A stretch of 64,000 nt of DNA from Escherichia coli phage Wa28, in sequence record LC788710.1; one strand, 5' to 3'. Positions 55,882-63,965 of this stretch are shown one piece after another. The notes beneath the pieces are model-generated. The model did no database searches and had not been told where the DNA came from. It saw only the letters and a list, made by a program, of their open reading frames with translations. Positions within the stretch are counted from its first letter, which is position 1. Every line of letters begins with the position of its first letter. Made by a program: the position numbers and the translations under genes.

Positions 55882-55957
55882 TGGTAGTTAGTAGTGGATT
55901 TGAACCACTGTAGTCGCTCCGTATGAAGGAGGTGCATAACCACTCTGCCAACTAACT
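55882..55957 (-). tRNA. tRNA-Met/Ile2 (anticodon CAT)
   Basis: hand-folded cloverleaf; T-loop TTCAAAT; anticodon loop TTCATAC; CCA encoded. Confidence 0.6.
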
Positions 55958-55963
55958 ATAATT

Positions 55964-56039
55964 TGGTACTCCGACTTGGGATCGAACCAAGATTTGACGA
56001 TTATCGGTCGCCTGTTCTAACCGTTTGAACTATCGGAGC
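55964..56039 (-). tRNA. tRNA-Ile (anticodon GAT)
   Basis: cloverleaf; anticodon loop CCGATAA (C at position 33). Confidence 0.55.
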
Positions 56040-56040
56040 A

Positions 56041-56334
56041 TTACATCATTTCGTCTAAGTAAGAAGTATACTGGTATTTAGCTTCTCCAGTTTTATCTAC
56101 TTCGACTTCTGTTCTAGGTACTTTTCGTACCAGACCGTGAATCATCTTGTACTGAATAGACTTAGATGGTTCGTGATCTTTTGGAAATACTTGTTTAACC
56201 GTTACTACTTTGAAGCCTTCACGAGGTGTTAGCACAACAACTTGATCACCTTCTTTTATTTTCCAAGACTCAGGAAATTCGTAAGTGTAGCGTTGACCAC
56301 CCGTTTGGAACACGACAGAAAGATAACGTTTCAT
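56041..56334 (-). CDS. hypothetical protein
   Basis: 97 aa; promoter upstream. Confidence 0.4.
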   Translation of the reverse strand: MKRYLSVVFQTGGQRYTYEFPESWKIKEGDQVVVLTPREGFKVVTVKQVFPKDHEPSKSIQYKMIHGLVRKVPRTEVEVDKTGEAKYQYTSYLDEMM

Positions 56335-56363
56335 TTGGTTTCCCTCTCATTAATTTATGTAAA

Positions 56364-56392
56364 TATTATAACAAGAAATAAGAGAGAAGGCA
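56364..56392 (-). promoter_or_regulatory. T5-type sigma70 promoter (TTGCCT-17-TATAAT)
   Basis: conserved architecture. Confidence 0.55.
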
Positions 56393-56408
56393 AATGAATT
56401 TTTAAATT

Positions 56409-56483
56409 TGGTGCTCCCACCAGGAATCGAACCCGGTTCAGATGCTTACAAGGCAACTGCATCGCCAGCAATGCTTTAGGAGC
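56409..56483 (-). tRNA. tRNA-Thr (anticodon TGT)
   Basis: cloverleaf; anticodon loop CTTGTAA. Confidence 0.6.
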
Positions 56484-56650
56484 AATAAACCCGTTATTTC
56501 AACGGAATTTCTTTTTCAAATACAGGAGACTTATCAGACATTACTGTCATAGCCAACTGCTGTAGAAATTCGAATGAGAGTTTTAAACGTTCTTCACCCA
56601 ACTCAACCTCAACACACTTCATTTGCTTATCAACCTTTAGCTTTAGATTA

Positions 56651-56872
56651 TCAGCCCTCTTCGGGTTCTCTTTGCTCAGCTATTGCTAGCCAGTCTGGTA
56701 AAAGAAACTTAGTACGAAATTCTTCATATGTTTCTTCTGGATGAAAGCTATAGCCTTGCTTTTCATCATTTAATAAAACCGAACCGTCTTCCTGTTCATA
56801 AGCTCGGTATGTTTCACCAATAATTAAAACTCGTCTATTGGGGTTTTTATTACGAAACTCAAAAACGTCCAT
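56651..56872 (-). CDS. hypothetical protein
   Basis: 73 aa. Confidence 0.35.
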   Translation of the reverse strand: MDVFEFRNKNPNRRVLIIGETYRAYEQEDGSVLLNDEKQGYSFHPEETYEEFRTKFLLPDWLAIAEQREPEEG

Positions 56873-56887
56873 AACGTTTCCTTAAGT

Positions 56888-56962
56888 TGGTGCGGGATAC
56901 GAGAGTCGAACTCGTGTCTACTGGTTGGAAGCCAGTTATTCTAGCCACTGAACTAATCACGC
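56888..56962 (-). tRNA. tRNA-Gly (anticodon TCC)
   Basis: cloverleaf; anticodon loop CTTCCAA. Confidence 0.55.
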
Positions 56963-56968
56963 ATAAAT

Positions 56969-57044
56969 TGGCTGGAGAAGGAGGAATCGAACCTACCATT
57001 AACGGAGTCAAAGGCCGTTGTGCTAACCGTTACACTACTCTCCA
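56969..57044 (-). tRNA. tRNA-Gln (anticodon TTG)
   Basis: cloverleaf; anticodon loop CTTTGAC. Confidence 0.55.
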
Positions 57045-57050
57045 AGTATT

Positions 57051-57126
57051 TGGCTGGGATGCCACGGATCGAACGTGGAACCTTCGGAGTCAGAGGCCGA
57101 CGATCTGCCAATTGATCTACATCCCA
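57051..57126 (-). tRNA. tRNA-Gln (anticodon CTG)
   Basis: cloverleaf with perfect acceptor stem; anticodon loop CTCTGAC. Confidence 0.6.
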
Positions 57127-57133
57127 ATAATTT

Positions 57134-57334
57134 TTATTCTACAGGAACCGTGGCAATTGGATCTGGTTCTTCTAGACGTTTACCATTATGGTCAACACGA
57201 ATAATACCACAACCTTCACAGATTACAACAGCACCATAGCCTTCTTTAACTTCGGCTTCTGTAATCAGACCAGAAAGATCACCAGTATCTTTGCCCCACA
57301 TATCGATAGAGCATTCTTTGCAGAAATCAGCCAT
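57134..57334 (-). CDS. zinc-ribbon protein
   Basis: 66 aa; CKEC...CEGC. Confidence 0.35.
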   Translation of the reverse strand: MADFCKECSIDMWGKDTGDLSGLITEAEVKEGYGAVVICEGCGIIRVDHNGKRLEEPDPIATVPVE

Positions 57335-57358
57335 ATTTTAGTTCCTGTATAAGTTAAT

Positions 57359-57433
57359 TGGTGCATCCTCAGGGAATCGAACCCCGATCGTAAAGTTCGT
57401 AGCTTTACATTCTTTCCGTTGAAATAAGGACGC
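57359..57433 (-). tRNA. tRNA-Arg (anticodon ACG)
   Basis: cloverleaf; anticodon loop CTACGAA. Confidence 0.55.
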
Positions 57434-57438
57434 ATATT

Positions 57439-57515
57439 TGGGGTGGCTAGTGGAATTCGAATCCACATAGGCCTGATTCACAATCAGGATCATTAACCAA
57501 TTATGATATAGCCAC
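57439..57515 (-). tRNA. tRNA-His (anticodon GTG)
   Basis: cloverleaf; anticodon loop TTGTGAA; perfect acceptor. Confidence 0.65.
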
Positions 57516-57896
57516 AATTGAATACTATTAGGGGATGATCAGTCCTCCATTTGGCCGTCTAAGGTACCAAAGTTAGTCATTCTGCGCACAGGTTTTTCTC
57601 CTGATTCTTTATTGCGAATGCTCTCTAATAATACTCAATTGTGGCGGCTCTCCGAAACTCTTCTACTCTAGCCTTAGCAGCTTACTCCCGAACGCATGTC
57701 GGGAAAGTCTTACTAAGAACATCAAATAGCACCGTTACACTTTGAGCCATTAATGTATCAAGAAGCAGAAGGACTTGAACCTTCACGAGATAGACCATTT
57801 ATCTCAGCCTCGTTTTCGGGTATCTTATGAGGAGTGGATGTTCCCCTTACGCCCTTTAGGAAGCCCCGTCTACCGATTCCGGCATACTTCAAGATT

Positions 57897-57986
57897 TGGC
57901 AGAAGATAATGGAGTCGAACCATCACCGTATCACTACAGCGGGCCGGTTTTCAAGACCGGTTACGTACCACTACGTCCTATCTTCT
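57897..57986 (-). tRNA. tRNA-Ser (anticodon TGA), class II
   Basis: 90 nt; anticodon arm CCGGT-CTTGAAA-ACCGG; long variable arm. Confidence 0.6.
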
Positions 57987-58213
57987 AGTATTTGTTCTAC
58001 TTCTTTTCGAAGATCTTCTGGATTATCATGATAGGTTGTTTGCCATACATAAATAACTCCAGTATCACATGCTTTATCAAATATTTCTCGCTCAGGAAGT
58101 TTCATGCCCATTGCGTACTTGATATGAAACTCTAAAGCTTGCTTACTAGGGAATGTATGACGCAAGAAAAACTTATCATTAACTAAATCCAACATCATAA
58201 TCTTGACTTTCAT
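57971..58213 (-). CDS. hypothetical protein
   Basis: 80 aa; 3-prime end overlaps tRNA-Ser. Confidence 0.35.
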   Translation of the reverse strand: MKVKIMMLDLVNDKFFLRHTFPSKQALEFHIKYAMGMKLPEREIFDKACDTGVIYVWQTTYHDNPEDLRKEVEQILEDRT

Positions 58214-58233
58214 TTATATTCCCTATTAGTTGT

Positions 58234-58326
58234 TTGGCGGAAGAAGAGAGATTCGAACTCTCAAGCCTGCTTTAACAAGTCAGCCACTTTCCAAGCGGTT
58301 TTCGTCACCTAATCGATTTGCTCTTC
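58234..58326 (-). tRNA. tRNA-Ser (anticodon GGA), class II
   Basis: 93 nt; T-arm GAGAG-TTCGAAT-CTCTC; anticodon loop TTGGAAA; fold less certain. Confidence 0.45.
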
Positions 58327-58501
58327 CGTAGATCTCAGGATTAAATCATAAACTTCATTAGCAGATACTGGAAGTATGAGATTATACATCTTTTGGTCAT
58401 ACCTCTGACCATACTCTATAAACACATACTCTTTAGTTAATGTATTAACAGCTAACCAGATATCAGTTATAGGAGTTTTCATCATGAGTTAATCCAATGT
58501 T

Positions 58502-58582
58502 TGGTAGGGATGGAGGGACTCGAACCCACACCCGAAGACTAGAACCTAAATCTAGCGCGTCTGCCAATTTCGCCACATCCCC
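58502..58582 (-). tRNA. tRNA-Leu (anticodon TAG), class II
   Basis: 81 nt; anticodon arm CTAGA-TTTAGGT-TCTAG. Confidence 0.55.
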
Positions 58583-58589
58583 ATTTTAT

Positions 58590-58808
58590 TTAGTTAGAAA
58601 TAAATAGTAACCCTGCAACAATGGAACCTATGCCACTGAATACCATTATCAGCATAGCTTCTAAGCTGATAAAGCGGACGTTATATGGAGCGCCCCAAGA
58701 ATAATCAGTAAAGAAAGTTTTCTTTTCTTTAGCTAAATCTTTAATAGTTCTAAAATAGATAGCTAGTGCTAAAGCTACAAGAACTACAGAGGCTGCTAAG
58801 AATACCAT
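58590..58808 (-). CDS. small membrane protein
   Basis: 72 aa, two TM helices. Confidence 0.35.
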   Translation of the reverse strand: MVFLAASVVLVALALAIYFRTIKDLAKEKKTFFTDYSWGAPYNVRFISLEAMLIMVFSGIGSIVAGLLFISN

Positions 58809-58827
58809 ATTATTTCCTTAATTTGTT

Positions 58828-58903
58828 TGGTGGAGTCACTCAGAATTGAACTGAGTTCCACTGCTTGCAAGGCAGTAAGTTTAACCAAATAACCTATGAC
58901 CCC
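58828..58903 (-). tRNA. tRNA-Ala (anticodon TGC)
   Basis: cloverleaf; G3:U70 wobble; anticodon loop CTTGCAA. Confidence 0.65.
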
Positions 58904-58908
58904 GAATT

Positions 58909-58987
58909 TGGTGGAGAATAAGAGATTCGAACTCTTCTGATATCCTCGGTGCAAGCGAGGTGTCCACTCCAAGCAGACCCATTCCCC
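58909..58987 (-). tRNA. tRNA-Ala-like (anticodon TGC), atypical
   Basis: 79 nt; G3:U70; anticodon loop CTTGCAC; G8G9 and 7-nt variable loop are non-canonical. Confidence 0.45.
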
Positions 58988-58996
58988 AAAATCTTT

Positions 58997-59225
58997 AAGT
59001 TTACTAAGGCTATTAGCTCGGTGTGCGTATTACCCTCAGACATTAGCCAGTAGAGGATAACCGCTCTTCACAAACCCGATACACTATTCAGTTGCCGCTG
59101 AATCTAGTGGACTAATCTAGAACTTATTGCAAAGTATCCCCCGCCATTAAGGGTCTACTTGCAATTGTGCTTTTTGGCAGCCAGTCCTAGGTCGAGCTAA
59201 TACCTTAGTGAACTTTGATGAGGAT
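58997..59225 (-). ncRNA. candidate structured RNA (~230 nt) closed by a ~24-bp terminal helix
   Basis: 58997-59022 pairs with 59200-59225 (2 mismatches); no ORF; promoter at 59250-59278 fires into it; leader hairpin GATGAGGA-gaaa-TCCTCATC. Confidence 0.35.
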
Positions 59226-59249
59226 TTCTCCTCATCAATTTATATAAAT

Positions 59250-59278
59250 ATTATAACAAGAAATTAAGCATCAAGCAA
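59250..59278 (-). promoter_or_regulatory. T5-type sigma70 promoter (TTGCTT-17-TATAAT) driving structured RNA and downstream tRNAs
   Basis: conserved architecture; -35 overlaps stop of upstream ORF. Confidence 0.6.
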
Positions 59279-59630
59279 GTACATTTTTAGCGATTTCTTG
59301 TATTTCCTTAACGTCACTAACGAAAAGGTAATCAGAGCTTCCAGAGTGCATACTCTGCATAACCACACCATCCTCTGGTGCATCTTCTTTCAAAGTAATA
59401 CCTAACCAGAACTCGGCAAAACTAGGTGTTACCTCACCTTGACTTGCCTTGAATACATCGGCTTCTGTGATCTCCTGACCAGTAGAGAGTCCCATGTACG
59501 GTACGTTCAGATCAATATCTTTGTAAAACTCAGCTAGATCTTGTTCGAAGTCCCAACCTTTAGAGATAGCGAACTCCATTGTTACATGACCGAAATAGCC
59601 TTGAACCTTGCTTGATAATTGCATTTGCAA
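59271..59630 (-). CDS. hypothetical acidic protein
   Basis: 119 aa. Confidence 0.4.
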   Translation of the reverse strand: MQMQLSSKVQGYFGHVTMEFAISKGWDFEQDLAEFYKDIDLNVPYMGLSTGQEITEADVFKASQGEVTPSFAEFWLGITLKEDAPEDGVVMQSMHSGSSDYLFVSDVKEIQEIAKNVLA

Positions 59631-59648
59631 TTCCTTATTTTGAGTTAA

Positions 59649-59722
59649 TTGGTACTCGGTGATAGAATCGAACTATCGCAACCGCCGTGTAAAGACGGGG
59701 TTCTCCCATTAAACTAACCGAG
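59649..59722 (-). tRNA. tRNA-Val (anticodon TAC)
   Basis: cloverleaf; anticodon loop TTTACAC. Confidence 0.55.
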
Positions 59723-59726
59723 CAAT

Positions 59727-59804
59727 TTGGTGGATTGCCTGGGATTCGAACCCAGAACTGACGGATTAAAGGTCCGCTACTCTTATCCGGTTGAGCTAGC
59801 AATC
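59727..59804 (-). tRNA. tRNA-Lys (anticodon TTT), C33 variant
   Basis: cloverleaf with perfect acceptor; anticodon loop CCTTTAA. Confidence 0.5.
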
Positions 59805-60269
59805 CAATTTTTCTACTAATAATTTAAAAGCATCTAGTACAGGTACTTCAAACCATTCCCCGGATACTCTGTAGTCTTTGAGAAGATTATGTAACTCTTT
59901 CTCCGTACGTCTTTTATCTGACGAAAATCTGAAATGGTGTAGCTTGTAGTCTCTATTAGGTGAATAGGTTTGATAACTTGCTAACCTCTCATTTACATCT
60001 ATAGTCATACCTATTTTATACATGCCTGGCCATGCGGGATTACCGATTACATATACAAAACCTTCCGTTATAGGTATTTTATGTTCTCTTTTGTATTTTA
60101 AGAGATTTAAAGCTGCCATTCGATAACAGAATTTAAATTCTGAAGTTTTTAACTTACCCTCTTTACCAGAAATTTCATTATATTTGCTCATATAAGCTCT
60201 TATAAGCTTATCATCTATAATAAAATTATCAGGAAGGTTTAAGGCAGCTAAAACTTTATTAATTAGCAT
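59796..60269 (-). CDS. T5orf172-domain (GIY-YIG-like) putative homing endonuclease
   Basis: 157 aa; VYVIGNPAWPGMYKIGMT...YQTYSP motif; paralog of 63369-63860. Confidence 0.55.
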   Translation of the reverse strand: MLINKVLAALNLPDNFIIDDKLIRAYMSKYNEISGKEGKLKTSEFKFCYRMAALNLLKYKREHKIPITEGFVYVIGNPAWPGMYKIGMTIDVNERLASYQTYSPNRDYKLHHFRFSSDKRRTEKELHNLLKDYRVSGEWFEVPVLDAFKLLVEKLDC

Positions 60270-60444
60270 AAACTTCCTTAATAGAGTAGACTTTCAAGTA
60301 AGGATGATTAATACCAAATTCCGCCATTACTTCATTTTCATCTTTACCATAATGGGCTAGTGGATACTTCTTACGATCTTTACTAGAACGTAAATCACTT
60401 ACTTTTAAACGAAATAATTTCATTTCGAAATCCTTCTATTAAAT

Positions 60445-60522
60445 TGGAAGCGGGTGCAGGAATCGAACCTACCTCTTTCTAGCTTATGAGACTAGCGATC
60501 TCTACCAGAGATCTAACCCGCA
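60445..60522 (-). tRNA. tRNA with CAT anticodon (Met/fMet/Ile2), 1:72 mismatch
   Basis: cloverleaf; anticodon loop CTCATAA; unpaired first acceptor pair. Confidence 0.5.
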
Positions 60523-60528
60523 ATTGTT

Positions 60529-60606
60529 TGGTCTCCGTGGGAGGATTTGAACCCCCGACCCTATCGCCCCAAACGAAACGCTCTAGCCAAACTGAGCTAC
60601 ACGGAG
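60529..60606 (-). tRNA. tRNA-Pro (anticodon TGG)
   Basis: cloverleaf; perfect acceptor; anticodon loop TTTGGGG (G37). Confidence 0.6.
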
Positions 60607-60638
60607 AATATTCTTTGTTAACTCACTTTATAAAATAT

Positions 60639-60667
60639 ATTATACAGAGAATTAAGCTAAATAGCAA
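60639..60667 (-). promoter_or_regulatory. T5-type sigma70 promoter (TTGCTA-17-TATAAT) upstream of tRNA-Pro
   Basis: conserved architecture. Confidence 0.6.
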
Positions 60668-60921
60668 CTACATTTTTTAATAAATTTACTTATTGCGTAG
60701 GCCACCTGGAGGGTTCAAGCCCCACGGCTGACAAAGAAGTTTGCGAGACTTCTCTTAAACGCCAGAATAGACCCGCCGATCTATCGGAACCTACTCAATA
60801 AGTAAACTTTCGTTTACCTACACCTACCTGGTCGGGAGGATTTTCAGCGACTAGAACCGGCCGGAAACTCATCGCCTTGTTTATCTAGGAGTCCGTTCTC
60901 TAGGAAGCAGAAACCTAAATT

Positions 60922-60995
60922 TGGTGCGGTCGGAGGGAATCGAACCCTCAACTTCTGGTTGGCAACCAAAAATTATACCTTTTAACTACGAACGC
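60922..60995 (-). tRNA. tRNA-Gly (anticodon GCC)
   Basis: cloverleaf; anticodon loop TTGCCAA. Confidence 0.55.
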
Positions 60996-61005
60996 ATAAT
61001 AAGTC

Positions 61006-61126
61006 AATCTAGGCAGGACTTGAACCTGCTATCACTTGTGCGGATTTACGAGAACCATTCTTTCACTCGAATCGAACGAGCTTCTACCCTCGGCAAGCTG
61101 GTGTCCCCTCTCCACCACGCTAGAAT
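61006..61126 (-). other. tRNA-like element (~121 nt) with perfect T-arm but no standard cloverleaf
   Basis: T-arm GCAGG-TTCAAGT-CCTGC at 61013-61029; acceptor-like pairing only to 61120-61126. Confidence 0.25.
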
Positions 61127-61208
61127 GATAATTAGTGCCTGCTCCTTTGAATCAAGAAGTCCACCCCGGACTTTGGGTCTTTGCAGTACATCACGCTGCT
61201 CTGATGTT

Positions 61209-61285
61209 TGGTACACCCACTAGGACTTGAACCTAGAACCTACCGCTTAAGAGGCGGTAGCTCTAACCAATTGAGCTATGGATGT
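61209..61285 (-). tRNA. tRNA-Lys (anticodon CTT)
   Basis: cloverleaf; D-arm GCTCAATTGGTTAGAGC; anticodon arm ACCGC-CTCTTAA-GCGGT. Confidence 0.65.
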
Positions 61286-61291
61286 ATAATT

Positions 61292-61366
61292 TGGCGGTAC
61301 TAAGGGTAATCGAAACCCTACCTCTCCCGTGACAGGGGAGTATCCTAACCGTTAGACTATAGTACC
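61292..61366 (-). tRNA. tRNA-Asp (anticodon GTC)
   Basis: cloverleaf; anticodon arm CTCCC-CTGTCAC-GGGAG; perfect acceptor. Confidence 0.65.
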
Positions 61367-61938
61367 TTTAACTTTTTAAGTTCTTTAGGATTGCCTCCTA
61401 AAGAAGTGTATCTTTTACGCAACCCATTATCTGAATAACTTAACTTTCTCCCTGCACCTGACCAGCCTAGCTCTCTTACTGTAACCTCGATTATTTCTTT
61501 AGTTATAGAGATATCTTTTGGTTTATGTGAAGAGCACTCCTGACATTTTTCAGCTTTTAAAGAAATAGCTTTACCACAATCCTTACAACAATTATCATGG
61601 TTTAGTTTACTAAATCCTTTATCTTTTAAAGTCTTTTCTAGATGCTGCTCTTTTGTGAGCACTTGTAAGTTATTAAGACCCCAATAAGTAATGTCTGTGT
61701 TAATATGGTCAACTTCTAGTTCAGAGTCTAGACTTGGTAATTTCTTAAATGCACATGCTAAAATCCTATGTACACCGGTATTTCTCTGTTGACCATTTTT
61801 ATGGAGACGTATAGATAAGTATCCGTAATTACTGGTTATTTGGGTTAGTATTTTGTTTGATTTGATACTAAATACTAACCCATCCAAACTTACTAAGTAC
61901 TCCTCAAACCCTGGAATGGGTAAGGATATTCCGTGCAT
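61357..61938 (-). CDS. HNH homing endonuclease
   Basis: 193 aa; GVHRILA...EVDHIN...NNLQVLTKEQH HNH motif plus C-terminal Cys cluster. Confidence 0.6.
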   Translation of the reverse strand: MHGISLPIPGFEEYLVSLDGLVFSIKSNKILTQITSNYGYLSIRLHKNGQQRNTGVHRILACAFKKLPSLDSELEVDHINTDITYWGLNNLQVLTKEQHLEKTLKDKGFSKLNHDNCCKDCGKAISLKAEKCQECSSHKPKDISITKEIIEVTVRELGWSGAGRKLSYSDNGLRKRYTSLGGNPKELKKLKVL

Positions 61939-61941
61939 AAT

Positions 61942-62127
61942 TTACTCAGTTTTGAGTTTTTCGATAGCTTCCTCAACCTCTTTTAGAGCTTCACGACGCT
62001 CTACTTGACCTTGAAGTTCTTCAAGAAGTTCAGCTTTCAGAGCCTTAATAATATTACCACGAACCTTAATATTATTAATCAGATTATCACGATCAGCTTC
62101 TAGTCGAGCAATTGCACGAGTTGTCAT
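61942..62127 (-). CDS. small coiled-coil protein
   Basis: 61 aa. Confidence 0.3.
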   Translation of the reverse strand: MTTRAIARLEADRDNLINNIKVRGNIIKALKAELLEELQGQVERREALKEVEEAIEKLKTE

Positions 62128-62230
62128 ATCTATTTCCTCAGTTGTTAATGAAAAATGGTATCTGTGACTGAATTCGATATCAGCAATGATAGCTGGTTGG
62201 CTACCGGTTTACTTAACTCTACACAGAATA

Positions 62231-62313
62231 TGGCGGGCCGTGTAGGATTCGAACCTACGTTGTCTTTCGACATGGATTAACAGTCCACCGCCAAACCGCT
62301 TGGCTAACGACCC
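62231..62313 (-). tRNA. tRNA-Asn (anticodon GTT) with unusually long 13-nt variable arm
   Basis: 83 nt; anticodon arm GGACTGTTAATCC; extra arm GTC-gaaa-GAC. Confidence 0.55.
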
Positions 62314-62320
62314 TAAAATT

Positions 62321-62396
62321 TGGACGACCGCATGAGATTCGAACTCACATAAGGAGGTTTTGCAGGCCTCCGCCTAAGCCATTCAGCCAACGGTCG
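62321..62396 (-). tRNA. tRNA-Cys (anticodon GCA)
   Basis: cloverleaf; anticodon loop CTGCAAA. Confidence 0.6.
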
Positions 62397-62574
62397 ATTT
62401 ATCTTGCTTTTCGAGATTAGTAAACTCTAGATCTTTAGAATGTCCTATAGATCTAGCATAATAGCCATCTCCAGCATCGTAGCCTGATTTACCGCACTCA
62501 CACATCTTAAACTCTCTATAATGAGTGAAAATATGTTCAGAACCACAACACTTAAATTTAACTAACATTTTCAT
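62383..62574 (-). CDS. small zinc-ribbon protein
   Basis: 63 aa; CCGSEH...CECGKS. Confidence 0.3.
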   Translation of the reverse strand: MKMLVKFKCCGSEHIFTHYREFKMCECGKSGYDAGDGYYARSIGHSKDLEFTNLEKQDKSTVG

Positions 62575-62813
62575 TTAACACGCTCCGGTAAATCTTCGAG
62601 TTTATATTGAGTAGCCACATTAGCAGCATCTAGTAACAAACCCATATGTTTAAGAATCCTAGTGATAGCCTCGCCTTCTGCTTCTTCTACAAAAGTGCGT
62701 AGTTGAATGAAGTCAATACCCCCATCCATACCAGAGAAAATGTTTAGTAAGCGAAGCATTACCAGCTTACGTTCTTTCAATTCTTGTTCTGTCATGTTGC
62801 TTCTCCAGTTCAA
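62571..62813 (-). CDS. hypothetical protein
   Basis: 80 aa; promoter upstream. Confidence 0.35.
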   Translation of the reverse strand: MNWRSNMTEQELKERKLVMLRLLNIFSGMDGGIDFIQLRTFVEEAEGEAITRILKHMGLLLDAANVATQYKLEDLPERVK

Positions 62814-62824
62814 TTTATGTAATA

Positions 62825-62853
62825 ATTATACAGAACTTTAAGCGGTTAAGCAA
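62825..62853 (-). promoter_or_regulatory. T5-type sigma70 promoter (TTGCTT-17-TATAAT)
   Basis: conserved architecture. Confidence 0.6.
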
Positions 62854-63124
62854 CTACATTTTTTAAGAATTTGATGCCTTTCTTTTTCTTCTTATATTTC
62901 CACGTTAACGGGTTCTGTCGATTATGAACGCTTGAGATCTTTGTCTCGTCAAAGTTCTTCAAAACCATGTAATCACAGGCCAACTGTTCTAGTGGGATGT
63001 GATCTCCATCAAAAGCATAAACATAAGGCTGTTGACTAGCACGATAATGATAGACTTTGTTAATTCTGCGTTTCAGTGACTTATCCGCACAGTAAATAAA
63101 GAAGTTTTCAGGATGCATCAGCAT
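62846..63124 (-). CDS. hypothetical protein
   Basis: 92 aa. Confidence 0.35.
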   Translation of the reverse strand: MLMHPENFFIYCADKSLKRRINKVYHYRASQQPYVYAFDGDHIPLEQLACDYMVLKNFDETKISSVHNRQNPLTWKYKKKKKGIKFLKNVVA

Positions 63125-63135
63125 CTCCTTAAAAT

Positions 63136-63210
63136 TGGTGCACCCTGTTCGTATCGAACGAACCTCTCAAGCTCTTCAGGCAAGCGCTAATCCATCTCAG
63201 CTAAAGGTGC
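63136..63210 (-). tRNA. tRNA-Phe (anticodon GAA), weak anticodon stem
   Basis: cloverleaf; anticodon loop CTGAAGA; two U-U mismatches in anticodon stem. Confidence 0.45.
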
Positions 63211-63216
63211 AAATAT

Positions 63217-63293
63217 TGGCAAACCTACTAGGACTCGAACCTAGACCGTACGGTTTTGGAGACCGACATGCTGTCCAGTAACACTCTAGGAAT
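63217..63293 (-). tRNA. tRNA-Trp (anticodon CCA), mismatched acceptor
   Basis: anticodon loop CTCCAAA and T-loop TTCGAGT as in enterobacterial tRNA-Trp; two U-U mismatches in acceptor. Confidence 0.45.
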
Positions 63294-63301
63294 GCAGAAA
63301 T

Positions 63302-63378
63302 TGGCGTCCTGTGCGGGGATCGAACCCGCAAACCCCACCTTGAAAGGGTGGTGACTTTACCAGTTTGTCTAACAGGAC
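63302..63378 (-). tRNA. tRNA-Glu (anticodon TTC)
   Basis: perfect acceptor; anticodon arm CCACC-CTTTCAA-GGTGG. Confidence 0.65.
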
Positions 63379-63860
63379 TTAAATTGTTTATTGGATAGAT
63401 TGTTAAACTCGGAAAGTATGTCGTCTACACTTCTGTCTAACACTACCCATTCATTAAGCCGTTCAGGAAAGCTATTATGAAGCATTTTCTCCGCTTCTCT
63501 AGCATTAAACCAAAATGACCAATGTATTAACTTATAATCACGTAAGGGAGAATAAGTTTGGTAATTTCCTAATCTTGTTTTAGGATCAGAAGACATACCA
63601 ATTTTTACATAGTTATCCCACGCTGGGTTAGTTATTGCATAAATAAAACCACAGCTGGATTTTTCTCCAATACTTTTGTTATACTTGATAAAAGATAGGG
63701 CAGATAACTTCAAGCTATATCGACGATTACTATCGCGACCAAAGTTAGCTGTACCAAATGTGAGGCTTTCTAATATTAGATCTTTGTTTATATCGGCGGG
63801 TGAACCCAACTGTATAATACCTCTATTTGCAGCTTCTTGAATTATCCGATCAATATACAT
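63369..63860 (-). CDS. T5orf172-domain (GIY-YIG-like) putative homing endonuclease
   Basis: 163 aa; FIYAITNPAWDNYVKIGMS...YQTYSP motif; paralog of 59796-60269. Confidence 0.55.
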   Translation of the reverse strand: MYIDRIIQEAANRGIIQLGSPADINKDLILESLTFGTANFGRDSNRRYSLKLSALSFIKYNKSIGEKSSCGFIYAITNPAWDNYVKIGMSSDPKTRLGNYQTYSPLRDYKLIHWSFWFNAREAEKMLHNSFPERLNEWVVLDRSVDDILSEFNNLSNKQFKSC

Positions 63861-63877
63861 ATCCTTTACCTTTAATT

Positions 63878-63965
63878 TGGTGGGCGTTAATGGAGTCGAA
63901 CCACTCGAGTCGCAATGACCAGGGATTTACAATCCCCTCCGCTACCACTTACGGAATAAACGCCC
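63878..63965 (-). tRNA. tRNA-Tyr (anticodon GTA), class II
   Basis: 88 nt; perfect acceptor; anticodon loop TTGTAAA. Confidence 0.6.

What the first reader, a model, noticed from the sequence alone, without database searches (positions are those of the whole stretch)
55882..63965. About 26-gene tRNA cluster with several non-canonical members
Hand-folding finds tRNAs for Met/CAT (two), Ile, Thr, Gly (two), Gln (two), Arg, His, Ser (two), Leu, Ala (two with the same TGC anticodon), Val, Lys (two), Pro, Asp, Asn, Cys, Phe, Trp, Glu and Tyr, all on the minus strand. Oddities: tRNA-Asn (62231-62313) has a canonical Asn anticodon arm but a 13-nt extra arm (GTC-gaaa-GAC), giving a class-II-like length; the second tRNA-Ala (58909-58987) has G8G9 and a 7-nt variable loop; tRNA-Ile and tRNA-Lys(TTT) have C at position 33; tRNA-Phe and tRNA-Trp have U-U mismatches in stems; one CAT tRNA has an unpaired 1:72 pair (initiator-like).
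Basis: seen in the sequence. Interest (0 to 1): 0.55.

Follow-up and report, generated by a model that had tools for sequence, protein, structure and literature searches.

The report
T5-like phage tRNA cluster, long-arm tRNA-Asn
This is the well-known tRNA-rich region of a T5-like phage, but its odd members are real and conserved, and one of them, a tRNA-Asn with an extra hairpin arm, belongs to a covarying tRNA form found in many unrelated phages, rare in cellular genomes, and not described in the literature I could search.

Summary
Every listed oddity is present.

The window is an Epseptimavirus, 99.9% identical to phage Shin27. The region is syntenic with the annotated tRNA region of phage T5. 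The cluster itself is already known.

The anomalies are conserved alleles, not decay:
- **tRNA-Asn extra arm (GTC-GAAA-GAC).** It covaries across T5-like and T4-like phages: 4 of 4 pairs show double changes and 100% of cells are paired.
  - About 108 distinct long-arm Asn(GUU) tRNAs occur, almost all on diverse viral contigs. GNRA loops cap 69 of them, and 97% of the viral ones carry G73.
  - They make up about 12% of pattern-matched viral Asn genes. Only about 19 turned up among 185,579 cellular species, mostly inside accessory tRNA arrays.
- **C33.** It recurs in 24% of distinct phage tRNA-Ile(GAU) sequences.

Published work shows that T5 and SP15 tRNAs (Lys, Thr, Asn, Tyr) defeat tRNA-cleaving defences. 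My inference is that the odd features keep synthetase identity while changing the surfaces that nucleases read. That step is untested.

The parts
55882..55957 (-). tRNA-Met(CAT), elongator type, anticodon loop TTCATAC
   Evidence: ARAGORN; Rfam 51.5 bits; identical to T5 tRNA-Met
55964..56039 (-). tRNA-Ile(GAT) with C33 (loop CCGATAA)
   Evidence: 58.9 bits; C33 shared by S114, 26175IV, X20, KpV477 and others
56409..56483 (-). tRNA-Thr(TGT); anticodon stem-loop identical to T5 tRNA-Thr
   Evidence: the T5 homolog helps neutralise PARIS (PMC12409363)
56888..56962 (-). tRNA-Gly(TCC), U4.C69 mismatch
56969..57044 (-). tRNA-Gln(TTG)
57051..57126 (-). tRNA-Gln(CTG)
57359..57433 (-). tRNA-Arg(ACG)
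57439..57515 (-). tRNA-His(GTG), identical to T5
57642..57748 (-). homolog of T5 stable RNA 'RNAI' (ends GAGCCGCCA)
   Evidence: blastn 90.7% over 107 nt to the T5 misc_RNA; fold
57749..57893 (-). homolog of T5 tRNA-like stable RNA 'RNA1'
   Evidence: 80.7% over 145 nt; T-arm-like hairpin
57897..57986 (-). tRNA-Ser(TGA), class II
   Evidence: RF00005 32.1 bits
58235..58327 (-). degenerate tRNA-Ser(GGA), the 26th gene; weak D arm; overlaps the stop of ORF 58309-58485
   Evidence: RF01852 23.8 bits, E = 0.37; ARAGORN only at -ps90; equals S114 Ser(GGA) plus 1 nt
58502..58582 (-). tRNA-Leu(TAG)
58828..58903 (-). tRNA-Ala(TGC) copy 1, canonical
   Evidence: 59.6 bits
58909..58987 (-). tRNA-Ala(TGC) copy 2: G8 G9, large D loop, 7-nt variable loop, G3.U70 kept
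   Evidence: 38.1 bits; PM135 ortholog has compensatory changes in the acceptor, D and T stems and is the only Ala gene ARAGORN finds in the 24-kb PM135 stretch examined
59068..59202 (-). partial homolog of T5 stable RNA 'RNA2H'
   Evidence: 77.8% over 135 nt; fold z = -2.5
59650..59723 (-). tRNA-Val(TAC)
59728..59805 (-). tRNA-Lys(TTT) with C33, U39, C41 and C16
   Evidence: the allele differs from T5 and SP15
59796..60269 (-). homing-endonuclease-type ORF (T5orf172/MUG113); its 3' end overlaps Lys(TTT)
   Evidence: Pfam PF13455 1e-18, PF10544 5e-15
60445..60522 (-). initiator-like tRNA(CAT): U1.U72, G2-C71, C3-G70, U73; lacks the GGG:CCC anticodon-stem pairs
   Evidence: identical to the T5 gene annotated 'initiator tRNA fMet'
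60529..60606 (-). tRNA-Pro(TGG)
60639..60667 (-). promoter-like site TTGCTA-17-TATAAT (position of T5 P13a)
   Evidence: 10/12 match; T5 annotation
60694..60794 (-). homolog of T5 stable RNA 'RNAIV'
   Evidence: 94.1% over 101 nt
60922..60995 (-). tRNA-Gly(GCC), U4.C69 mismatch
61003..61127 (-). homolog of T5 tRNA-like stable RNA 'RNA2'
   Evidence: 89.6% over 125 nt
61209..61285 (-). tRNA-Lys(CTT)
   Evidence: 69.6 bits
61292..61366 (-). tRNA-Asp(GTC)
61357..61938 (-). NUMOD4 / HNH-type homing endonuclease ORF; its 3' end overlaps Asp
   Evidence: PF07463 3.5e-5; PF13392 1.5e-3, below cutoff
62156..62228 (-). homolog of T5 'RNA3' (putative tRNA-like RNA, ends CACAGAUACCA)
   Evidence: 97.3% over 73 nt; fold z = -2.4
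62231..62313 (-). tRNA-Asn(GTT), 83 nt, with a 13-nt variable arm GTC-GAAA-GAC+AAC, G73, and the anticodon stem-loop core GGACUGUUAAUCC
   Evidence: 59 bits; arm covaries; identical in SP15
62321..62396 (-). tRNA-Cys(GCA)
63136..63210 (-). tRNA-Phe(GAA), two U.U mismatches in the anticodon stem
   Evidence: the same mismatches occur in T5 tRNA-Phe
63217..63293 (-). tRNA-Trp(CCA), U.U at 2:71 and 3:70
   Evidence: 36.3 bits; identical mismatches in S114 and 26175IV
63302..63378 (-). tRNA-Glu(TTC)
63369..63860 (-). T5orf172-type homing endonuclease ORF between Tyr and Glu; absent from Shin27
   Evidence: PF10544 2.6e-8; the Shin27 match ends at query 7586
63878..63965 (-). tRNA-Tyr(GTA), class II
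   Evidence: T5/SP15 tRNA-Tyr counters retron-Eco7 (PMC11555353)
56365..56393 (-). promoter-like site TTGCCT-17-TG-TATAAT (position of T5 P11)
   Evidence: T5 annotation

Best explanation
This is the tRNA-rich early region of a T5-like (Epseptimavirus) phage. It holds 26 tRNA genes covering all 20 amino acids plus an initiator-like tRNA, and six tRNA-like 'stable RNAs'. All lie on one strand, with small ORFs and three homing-endonuclease genes between them.

The phage makes its own tRNAs so that translation continues when host tRNAs are depleted or cut by tRNA-targeting defences. Examples of such defences are PARIS AriB, PrrC, retron-Eco7 PtuAB and HepS.

The non-canonical members are conserved alleles, not decaying genes. 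They keep the elements that aminoacyl-tRNA synthetases read. Asn keeps GUU and G73, and Ala-2 keeps G3.U70. They differ from host tRNAs at positions that nucleases read. Ile(GAU) and Lys(UUU) carry C33 next to the wobble base, Lys carries C41 and C16, Thr has an anticodon stem-loop identical to T5's, and Asn carries an extra GNRA-capped arm. Homing endonucleases probably shuffle these alleles between phages.

Shown here:
- The genes, their folds, their conservation and the covariation.
- The enrichment of long-arm Asn and of C33-Ile in phages.

Shown by others for homologs:
- T5 Lys, Thr and Asn neutralise PARIS.
- T5 and SP15 Tyr neutralises retron-Eco7.
- SP15 Lys neutralises PrrC170.

Inferred only:
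- The extra arm and C33 are themselves what gives resistance.
- These tRNAs are charged with the cognate amino acid.
For: - **Identity and synteny.** The region is 99.9% identical to Shin27 (Epseptimavirus) and matches 675 phage records. Gene order matches the annotated T5 region, including fMet, the stable RNAs and the promoters.
- **tRNA calls.**
- **Conservation of the odd alleles.** The Ala-2 ortholog in PM135 has compensatory changes. The Trp, Phe, Gly and fMet-like oddities are identical in relatives.
- **Extra arm of Asn, covariation.** The arm reads:
  - GTC/GAC in the window and X20.
  - GTTC/GAAC in PM135.
  - ATCC/GGAT in S114.
  - GTCA/TGAC in KpV477.
  - GTCG/CGAC in CF1.

  In a structure-blind MAFFT alignment of 22 sequences, all 4 arm pairs show double changes and 100% of cells pair.
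- **Extra arm of Asn, wider sample.**
  - About 108 distinct long-arm Asn sequences were collected, and 84% form a hairpin of at least 3 bp against 27% of shuffles.
  - The difference in folding energy from shuffles has Wilcoxon p = 1e-18.
  - 69 of 108 have GNRA loops.
  - Variable-region length is bimodal, 4-6 versus 9-20 nt.
  - G73 is present in 85 of the 88 viral-locus sequences that could be parsed.
- **Phage enrichment.** 15 of 120 (12.5%) viral-contig matches are long-arm. There were only 33 pattern hits among 185,579 cellular species, about 19 of them real, and about 11 of those lie in dense tRNA arrays. No similar sequence exists in 5,426 E. coli genomes.
- **C33.** It occurs in 18 of 74 distinct phage Ile(GAU) sequences, against 3.6% non-U33 overall.
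- **Literature.**
  - PARIS and AriB: PMC11464382 and PMC12409363.
  - Retron-Eco7 and PrrC170: PMC11555353.
  - HepS cleaves Ile(GAU): PMC13043305.
  - Asn identity is the anticodon plus G73: PMC9976931.
- **Homing endonucleases.**
Against: - There are no expression, processing or aminoacylation data for this phage.
- The long-arm Asn keeps the exact host-like AriB site U36AAUCC41. If it resists AriB, that must come from the arm or the D loop, and this is untested.
- The identical SP15 Asn has been used only as a negative control.
- Lys(UUU) in the window keeps U39, the position whose change gives full AriB resistance.
- No nuclease is known to require U33 in tRNA-Ile.
- Codon-usage matching was not computed.
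- The promoter-like sites are not more numerous than in shuffled sequence (23 versus 21.6).
Confidence: 0.75

Rival explanations
1. The cluster only compensates codon usage. It supplies tRNAs for codons the phage uses more than the host does, and the structural oddities are neutral drift tolerated because the host tRNAs do most of the work.
For: This is the classical view of phage tRNAs, summarised in PMC10264068. Several tRNAs carry stem mismatches, which would fit relaxed constraint. Ser(GGA) is degenerate.
Against: The oddities are conserved, with compensatory changes, across genera and families. C33-Ile and long-arm Asn recur on unrelated tRNA bodies, which drift does not predict. T5 and SP15 homologs have demonstrated anti-defence roles.
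Confidence: 0.15
2. The long arm of tRNA-Asn is an inherited relic or a handle for a phage factor, not a shield. One version is that it descends from a class II scaffold such as Tyr(GUA), by an anticodon shift to GUU and A73 to G73. The other is that it is bound by a phage-encoded protein, for example the GatB/YqeY-like 'tRNA amidotransferase' encoded near the cluster in relatives.
For: Long-arm Asn tRNAs tend to have a class II-like core. A 3-bp D stem occurs in 51% against 18% of short-arm phage Asn, a D loop of 9-11 nt in 78% against 25%, and G9 in 38% against 5%. A 'tRNA amidotransferase' gene sits beside the cluster in S114, PM135 and SP15.
Against: The window Asn is not similar to the window Tyr. 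The arm occurs in very diverse phages (contigs from 4.5 to 434 kb), and no common partner protein was tested. T5 has the same neighbouring genes but a short-arm Asn. Strong GNRA preference and covariation argue for selection on the arm itself.
Confidence: 0.2
3. The long-arm tRNA with anticodon GUU is charged with another amino acid (Ser, Tyr or Leu, the class II set), so that Asn codons are partly recoded.
For: SerRS recognises a long variable arm and G73 rather than the anticodon (tRNA identity rules, PMC9976931). The tRNA has G73 and an extra arm.
Against: The anticodon GUU plus G73 is the full known E. coli Asn identity set. The arm is short, 3-4 bp with a 3-4 nt 3' spacer, whereas the Ser tRNAs in the same loci have 13-23 nt arms. 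Leu and Tyr need A73. In the T5-like tRNA regions I examined (T5, S114, 26175IV, IrmaTschudi, SP15) this gene is the only Asn tRNA and sits at the same position as the short-arm T5 Asn.
Confidence: 0.04
4. The atypical genes (Ala-2, Trp, Phe, Ser-GGA, the fMet-like gene) are pseudogenes or non-translational tRNA-like RNAs.
For: Model scores are low: Trp 36.3, Ala-2 38.1, and Ser(GGA) 23.8 bits, below threshold. S114 annotators labelled the Cys gene and two Met genes 'Pseudo'. The T5 notes say several of these tRNAs do not become amber suppressors. The cluster does contain tRNA-like RNAs of unknown function.
Against: The sequences are conserved and the stems covary between genera. All encode CCA. 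T5 tRNA-Phe, which has the same U.U mismatches, is a studied substrate of E. coli PheRS (PMC9976931). A failed suppressor test is uninformative where the anticodon is itself an identity element. Ala-2 is the only Ala gene found in the PM135 stretch examined.
Confidence: 0.15

Closest known systems
tRNA gene region of bacteriophage T5 (AY543070; 'tRNA-rich region' of T5 and SP15)
   Same: The gene order and strand are the same, and the tRNA genes sit among small ORFs, homing endonucleases and early promoters. The Met, fMet-like and His genes are identical, and the Phe, Thr and Val genes are nearly identical. There are homologs of stable RNAs RNAI, RNA1, RNA2H, RNAIV, RNA2 and RNA3.
   Different: Many isoacceptors are different alleles: Ile(GAU), Lys(UUU), Asn, Ala, both Gln, Asp, Pro, Leu and Tyr. 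T5 has U33 in Ile and Lys, and a 78-nt class I Asn with a mutated anticodon stem. The window adds Gly(GCC), Lys(CTT), Arg(ACG) and a second Ala, and it has T5orf172-type endonucleases.
Class II tRNAs (bacterial Leu, Ser, Tyr, Sec)
   Same: A base-paired variable arm lies between the anticodon and T arms. Relatives of the window Asn often have the 3-bp D stem, large D loop and G9 typical of class II.
   Different: The isotype is Asn, which is class I in cellular organisms. The arm is short, 3-5 bp, usually capped by GNRA and followed by 3-4 unpaired nucleotides. The window copy itself keeps a 4-bp D stem and A9.
PARIS-resistant T5 tRNA-Lys(UUU), Thr(UGU) and Asn(GUU) (PMC11464382, PMC12409363)
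   Same: The three isoacceptors are the same and sit at the same positions in the cluster. The window Thr anticodon stem-loop equals that of T5. The window Lys shares C41 and C16 with T5.
   Different: The window Lys keeps U39 and has C33. The window Asn keeps the host AriB site UAAUCC and differs by the extra arm instead. Resistance has not been tested for these alleles.
Accessory tRNA arrays of bacteria (PMC4758250)
   Same: They are dense arrays of many tRNA genes. Most of the few cellular long-arm Asn genes lie in such arrays, for example in Micromonospora with 23-36 tRNAs per 8 kb.
   Different: Those arrays are chromosomal or on mobile elements. The paper does not mention tRNA-Asn structure.
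Bacterial initiator tRNA-fMet
   Same: The window gene has an unpaired 1:72 position, G2-C71, C3-G70 and a CAU anticodon. The T5 record names the identical gene 'initiator tRNA fMet'.
   Different: It has U1.U72 and U73 where E. coli has C1.A72 and A73 (own knowledge). It lacks the three G:C pairs at the bottom of the anticodon stem, which the T4-like phage versions keep.

Membership tests
Canonical tRNA (Rfam RF00005 / ARAGORN cloverleaf) | Cloverleaf with a 7-bp acceptor stem and D, anticodon and T arms, scoring above the family threshold | tested here: met
   25 genes by ARAGORN. 23 are at or above 29 bits. Ala-2 scores 38.1 bits. Tyr is found by ARAGORN and matches the tRNA clan. Ser(GGA) scores only 23.8 bits and needs relaxed ARAGORN.
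Canonical tRNA (Rfam RF00005 / ARAGORN cloverleaf) | Near-invariant U33 and U8 | tested here: not met
   Ile(GAT) and Lys(TTT) have C33, and Ala-2 has G8. All other genes have U33.
Class I tRNA (all isotypes except Leu, Ser, Tyr and Sec in bacteria) | Variable region of 4-5 nt without a stem | tested here: not met
   The Asn variable region is 13 nt, with a 3-bp stem and a GAAA loop. Covariation is shown.
Class II tRNA | Base-paired long variable arm | tested here: met
   The arm helix shows 4 of 4 pairs with double changes and 100% pairing. 84% of about 110 sequences form a hairpin, against 27% of shuffles.
Class II tRNA | Isotype Leu, Ser, Tyr or Sec; class II core (3-bp D stem, G9) | tested here: not met
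   The anticodon is GUU with G73, which is Asn. The window copy has a 4-bp D stem and A9. The class II-like core is present in about half of the relatives.
tRNA-Asn as substrate of E. coli-type AsnRS | Anticodon G34 U35 U36 and discriminator G73 | tested here: met
   Sequence. The identity rule is from PMC9976931. G73 is present in 85 of 88 long-arm relatives.
tRNA-Asn as substrate of E. coli-type AsnRS | Actual aminoacylation with Asn | not testable with these tools
   This needs an in vitro charging assay or charged-tRNA sequencing.
Bacterial initiator tRNA | No Watson-Crick pair at 1:72, with G2-C71 and C3-G70 | tested here: met
   The gene at 60445-60522 has U1.U72, G2-C71 and C3-G70.
Bacterial initiator tRNA | Three consecutive G:C pairs at 29-31:39-41 | tested here: not met
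   The stem is CTAGT/GCTAG, with a single G:C pair. T4-like phage versions have GGG/CCC.
T5-like phage tRNA-rich region | Synteny with the T5 tRNA region, including stable RNAs and homing endonucleases | tested here: met
Nuclease-resistant phage tRNA variants (PARIS-evading type) | Substitutions at or near the AriB site (39-41) or at D-loop position 16, relative to the host tRNA | tested here: inconclusive
   The Thr anticodon stem-loop equals the T5 variant. Lys has C41 and C16 but keeps U39. The Asn site UAAUCC equals the host site, and Asn has C16 plus the extra arm.
Nuclease-resistant phage tRNA variants (PARIS-evading type) | Demonstrated resistance to cleavage, or rescue of infection | not testable with these tools
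   Data exist only for T5 and SP15 alleles. The identical SP15 Asn was used only as a control against PrrC170.

The most novel reading that the evidence does not exclude
Long-arm tRNA-Asn(GUU) is a distinct tRNA architecture specific to phages and mobile elements. It keeps AsnRS identity (GUU and G73). Its short GNRA-capped variable arm, and often a class II-like core, was selected because it blocks a widespread class of host tRNA-targeting enzymes. An example would be the Toprim nucleases of the AriB/OLD type, which span from anticodon-stem positions 40/41 to the D loop.

The same logic would explain the sporadic long arms in phage Thr(UGU), Cys and Trp tRNAs, and the recurrent C33 in phage tRNA-Ile(GAU) and Lys(UUU).
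Probability: 0.3. Interest if true: 0.75.

Novelty: new variant of a known kind. Interest (0 to 1): 0.5.

Why it matters
Phage tRNA clusters were a puzzle for 50 years and are now being tied to evasion of tRNA-cleaving immunity. So far only anticodon stem-loop substitutions have been considered as the means of evasion.

A conserved, covarying extra arm on tRNA-Asn breaks the textbook rule that only Leu, Ser, Tyr and Sec tRNAs are class II in bacteria-type systems. It is common on viral contigs and almost absent from core cellular tRNA sets. It points to whole-body remodelling of tRNAs as a second route of evasion.

The extra arm and the recurrent C33 in tRNA-Ile(GAU) give concrete variants that can be swapped and tested against AriB, HepS, PrrC and colicin E5. 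They also suggest scaffolds for nuclease-resistant or orthogonal tRNAs. If the features prove neutral, the finding reduces to a well-known phage tRNA cluster.

Tried and rejected
- **Covariance-model search for a large structural alignment.** The model matched every tRNA (705 hits), and the stored alignment A2 mixes isotypes. I did not use it. I relied on the structure-blind MAFFT alignment A1 and my own hairpin statistics.
- **Search of 5,426 E. coli genomes with the long-arm Asn.** There was no match. This shows absence of close copies but did not give me the host Asn sequence.
- **Linking the PARIS paper's Bas33/Bas34 result to the long-arm allele.** The paper says the phage's own Asn was not enough to bypass PARIS.
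  - No supplementary files are held.
  - IrmaTschudi carries locus tags 'bas28' and encodes both Thr(UGU) and Lys(UUU), so it does not fit the description.
  - The link is unresolved.
- **Literature searches for a described long-arm tRNA-Asn in phages (papers read).** I found nothing, but the library lacks most subscription journals, including the older Russian T5 tRNA papers.
- **Descent of the window Asn from the co-resident Tyr.** By eye the two sequences are not similar.
- **Promoter and terminator scan.** Counts are no higher than in shuffled sequence. Only the two best sites, which coincide with T5 promoters, are reported.
- **Fold z-scores of the intergenic RNAs.** They are modest, from -0.3 to -2.5. 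I make no structural claim beyond homology to the T5 stable RNAs.
- **Not computed.** I did not test codon usage against the tRNA set.

Full report

Yes. The drawn folds show that every gene encodes its CCA end.

The Rfam tRNA model scores 23 of them above its gathering threshold, with E-values from 4e-13 to 8e-3. In the more permissive run, Ala-2 (58912-58987) reaches 38.1 bits, and Tyr and Ser(TGA) match best as tRNA-Sec-like class II tRNAs.

- It scores only 23.8 bits (E = 0.37).
- ARAGORN finds it only at a relaxed threshold.
- It is the S114 tRNA-Ser(GGA) with one extra T in the D region.
- It is homologous to T5 tRNA-Ser2(GGA).

The count of about 26 is therefore right.

All listed oddities are in the folds:
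- Asn is 83 nt with a 13-nt variable region, GTC-GAAA-GAC plus AAC.
- Ala-2 has G8, G9 and a 7-nt variable loop, with G3.U70 kept.
- Ile(GAT) has the loop CCGATAA and Lys(TTT) has CCTTTAA, so both carry C33.
- Phe has two U.U mismatches in the anticodon stem.
- Trp has U.U mismatches at 2:71 and 3:70.
- The CAT tRNA at 60445-60522 has U1.U72.

**2. What is the region?**

The 8.2 kb matches 675 phage records. The best is Escherichia phage Shin27 (Epseptimavirus, Demerecviridae) at 99.9% identity over 93% of the query.

The fully annotated T5 record AY543070 shows the same order of genes on the same strand. It names the identical CAT gene 'initiator tRNA fMet'. It also annotates eight 'stable RNAs with unknown functions', three of them called tRNA-like.

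Six of those stable RNAs have homologs in the gaps of this window:

| T5 RNA | Window position | Identity |
|---|---|---|
| RNAI | 57642-57748 | 91% |
| RNA1 | 57749-57893 | 81% |
| RNA2H | 59068-59202 | 78% |
| RNAIV | 60694-60794 | 94% |
| RNA2 | 61003-61127 | 90% |
| RNA3 | 62156-62228 | 97% |

Several of them fold with paired ends and a T-arm-like hairpin.

Three ORFs between the tRNA genes are of homing-endonuclease type:
- T5orf172/MUG113 at 59796-60269.
- T5orf172/MUG113 at 63369-63860.
- NUMOD4 with a weak HNH match at 61357-61938.

Each overlaps the 5' end of the next tRNA gene by about 10 nt. The ORF at 63369-63860 is absent from Shin27.

The two best promoter-like sites coincide with T5 promoters P11 and P13a, although the scan as a whole is not above chance.

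The cluster as such is a known feature of T5-like phages.

**3. Are the odd members decaying or conserved?**

Comparison with T5, PM135, S114, 26175IV, IrmaTschudi and SP15 shows a mosaic.
- Some genes are identical or nearly identical across genera: Met, fMet-like, His, Phe and Thr.
- Others exist as sharply different alleles at the same position: Ile-GAU, Lys-UUU, Asn, Ala, Gln, Asp, Pro and Tyr.

The oddities are properties of alleles, and they are conserved:
- Ala-2 in PM135 (Novosibvirus) keeps G8, G9 and the 7-nt loop. Its acceptor, D and T stems carry compensatory changes. It is the only Ala gene ARAGORN finds in the PM135 stretch I examined.
- The U.U pairs of Trp and Phe and the U4.C69 mismatch of both Gly genes are identical in relatives.
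- T5 tRNA-Phe, which has the same mismatches, is a studied substrate of E. coli PheRS (PMC9976931).

Only Ser(GGA) looks degenerate.

**4. The long-arm tRNA-Asn**

This is the feature that goes beyond what is known.

A BLAST search with the 83-nt gene finds full-length matches of 83-86 nt in T5-like phages. It also finds them in T4-like phages and related large myoviruses of Serratia, Klebsiella, Enterobacter, Cronobacter and Citrobacter.

The arm covaries:

| Phage | Arm |
|---|---|
| Window, X20 | GTC-GAAA-GAC |
| PM135 | GTTC-GAAA-GAAC |
| S114, 26175IV | ATCC-GCAA-GGAT |
| KpV477 | GTCA-GAAA-TGAC |
| CF1 | GTCG-GTAA-CGAC |
| Marfa | GTC-TTAG-GAC |

Those contigs range from 4.5 to 434 kb. 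Together with the cellular hits below, this gave about 108 distinct long-arm Asn(GUU) tRNAs with very different acceptor and D arms.

Their variable regions behave as a hairpin:
- 84% form a hairpin of at least 3 bp, against 27% of shuffles.
- Mean folding energy is -3.3 kcal/mol against -0.6 for shuffles (Wilcoxon p = 1e-18).
- The loop is GNRA in 69 of 108, and GAAA in 49.

In a structure-blind MAFFT alignment of 22 diverse members, the arm helix has 4 of 4 pairs with changes on both sides and 100% of cells paired. The slid controls give about 35-44% pairing.

Other properties:
- Variable-region length is bimodal, 4-6 nt or 9-20 nt, with nothing at 7-8.
- G73 is present in 85 of the 88 viral-locus sequences that could be parsed.
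- The core tends towards class II. A 3-bp D stem occurs in 51% against 18% of short-arm phage Asn, a D loop of 9-11 nt in 78% against 25%, and G9 in 38% against 5%.

**5. Is it a phage trait?**

When the same pattern allows normal spacing, 15 of 120 viral stretches (12.5%) are long-arm.

In one genome per species for 185,579 bacterial and archaeal species, the long-spacer pattern gave only 33 stretches.
- About 19 are real long-arm Asn genes.
- About 11 of those lie in dense tRNA arrays of 7-36 tRNA genes per 8 kb, for example in Micromonospora.
- Several others are on short MAG contigs.

No similar sequence occurs in 5,426 complete E. coli genomes.

In the same phage loci, other class I isotypes are almost always short-armed: Lys 0 of 86, Arg 0 of 94 and His 0 of 46. 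Short GNRA-capped arms do appear sporadically in Thr(UGU), Cys, Trp and Met, and longer arms in Ile(UAU).

Four literature searches and six papers read found no description of a long-arm tRNA-Asn. The library is incomplete, so I call this apparently undescribed rather than certainly new.

**6. C33**

Among distinct phage tRNAs in the fetched loci, 1890 have U33 and 70 do not. Ile(GAU) alone accounts for 18 of the 53 C33 cases. That is 18 of 74 Ile(GAU) sequences (24%), on unrelated tRNA bodies that include T4-like phages X20 and KpV477. T5 and PM135 have U33 in this tRNA.

Lys(UUU) with C33 is rarer, 3 of 77, and in T5-like phages is confined to the Epseptimavirus allele.

**7. How it most likely works**

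Established for homologs:
- T5 tRNA-Lys(UUU), Thr(UGU) and Asn(GUU) together neutralise the PARIS nuclease AriB. AriB cuts host tRNAs between positions 40 and 41 and also reads D-loop position U16 (PMC11464382 and PMC12409363).
- T5 and SP15 tRNA-Tyr defeats retron-Eco7.
- SP15 tRNA-Lys defeats PrrC170, whereas E. coli tRNA-Lys restored infection only poorly (PMC11555353).
- The Salmonella prophage nuclease HepS cleaves Thr tRNAs most strongly, and also Ile(GAU) and Ser(GCU) (PMC13043305).

In the window:
- The Thr anticodon stem-loop is identical to the T5 variant.
- Lys(UUU) shares C41 and C16 with T5 but keeps U39 and adds C33.
- Asn keeps the host AriB site UAAUCC but has C16 and the extra arm.

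Asn identity needs only the anticodon and G73, so an added arm should be tolerated by AsnRS.

My inference is that these alleles keep synthetase identity and alter the surfaces that defence nucleases read, and that homing endonucleases spread them. The specific claims are untested: that the arm or C33 confers resistance, and against which enzyme. The retained AriB site in the long-arm Asn is a point against a simple PARIS explanation.

The SP15 Asn is identical to the window gene. It has only ever been used as a negative control.

**8. Rivals**

- Pure codon compensation with neutral drift does not explain the covariation or the recurrence on unrelated tRNA bodies.
- A pseudogene reading fits only Ser(GGA).
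- Recoding through SerRS is unlikely given GUU plus G73 and the short arm.
- A relic of a class II ancestor, or a handle for a phage factor, remains possible. One candidate factor is the GatB/YqeY-like protein next to the cluster in relatives.

**9. Verdict**

The cluster is already known from T5.

The added value has three parts:
- The anomalies are conserved alleles.
- The long-arm tRNA-Asn belongs to a widespread, covarying, phage-enriched tRNA form.
- C33 recurs in phage tRNA-Ile(GAU).

I rate this as a new variant of a known kind, of moderate interest. The key experiments are straightforward.

Noticed in passing
window 57642-57893, 59068-59202, 60694-60794, 61003-61127, 62156-62228 (minus strand): The gaps between tRNA genes hold homologs of six T5 'stable RNAs with unknown functions': RNAI, RNA1, RNA2H, RNAIV, RNA2 and RNA3. 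Several have acceptor-like paired ends, T-arm-like hairpins and CCA-like 3' ends. Their function is still unknown in T5.
   Followed up: partly
window 57520-57641, 58988-59067, 60795-60921, 61128-61208 (minus strand): These non-coding stretches have no homolog among the T5 stable RNAs I tested. The first occupies the place of T5 RNAIII but does not match it. Fold z-scores are modest, from -0.5 to -1.4.
   Followed up: partly
window 59796-60269, 61357-61938, 63369-63860 (minus strand): There are three homing-endonuclease-type ORFs: two T5orf172/MUG113 and one NUMOD4/HNH. Each ORF's last ~10 nt overlap the 5' end of the downstream tRNA gene (Lys-TTT, Asp, Glu). The ORF at 63369-63860 is absent from the 99.9%-identical phage Shin27.
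   Followed up: partly
L001 10030-10106 (Shin27); L004 9273-9346 (S114); just beyond the window end: Relatives encode a short tRNA-Leu(TAA) of 74-77 nt that looks class I. This is the converse anomaly to the long-arm Asn. In the viral loci, 59 of 140 Leu calls had short variable regions.
   Followed up: no
L021 and L093 (T5-like viral contigs), and other viral loci: Some phages carry tRNA-Thr(UGU) of 85-87 nt with a short GNRA-capped variable arm. Across the loci this was 11 of 100 distinct Thr tRNAs (all anticodons counted), and all 11 long-arm cases are UGU. Similar arms occur in Cys(GCA) (9 of 59), Trp and Met, and longer arms in Ile(UAU). Thr(UGU) and Asn(GUU) are both AriB targets.
   Followed up: partly
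L002 (T5), L269 (SP15), window 59728-59805: tRNA-Lys(UUU) exists as at least three very different alleles at the same position in T5-like phages:
- T5 has U33, A39 and C41.
- SP15 has U33 and the stem TCCGA/TCGGA.
- The window, S114 and IrmaTschudi have C33, U39 and C41.
   Followed up: partly
L003 9110-9532 (PM135), L004 2972-3415 (S114), L269 20367-20810 (SP15); outside the window: A small ORF annotated 'tRNA amidotransferase' lies beside the tRNA cluster in relatives. I suspect it is GatB/YqeY-like but did not check its domains. It could interact with the phage tRNA-Asn or tRNA-Gln.
   Followed up: no
L133, L134, L138, L159 (Micromonospora / Verrucosispora genomes): These are chromosomal arrays of 23-36 tRNA genes within 8 kb. 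Each contains an 89-90 nt long-arm tRNA-Asn(GUU) whose arm is a 4-6 bp stem with a GGAA, GTAA or GCAA loop.
   Followed up: partly
hit H32 (MG065642, 'Campylobacter phage A148', 113 kb): A record labelled as a Campylobacter phage carries a tRNA-Asn 100% identical to the window gene. It has a T5-like genome size, so the host label may be wrong.
   Followed up: no
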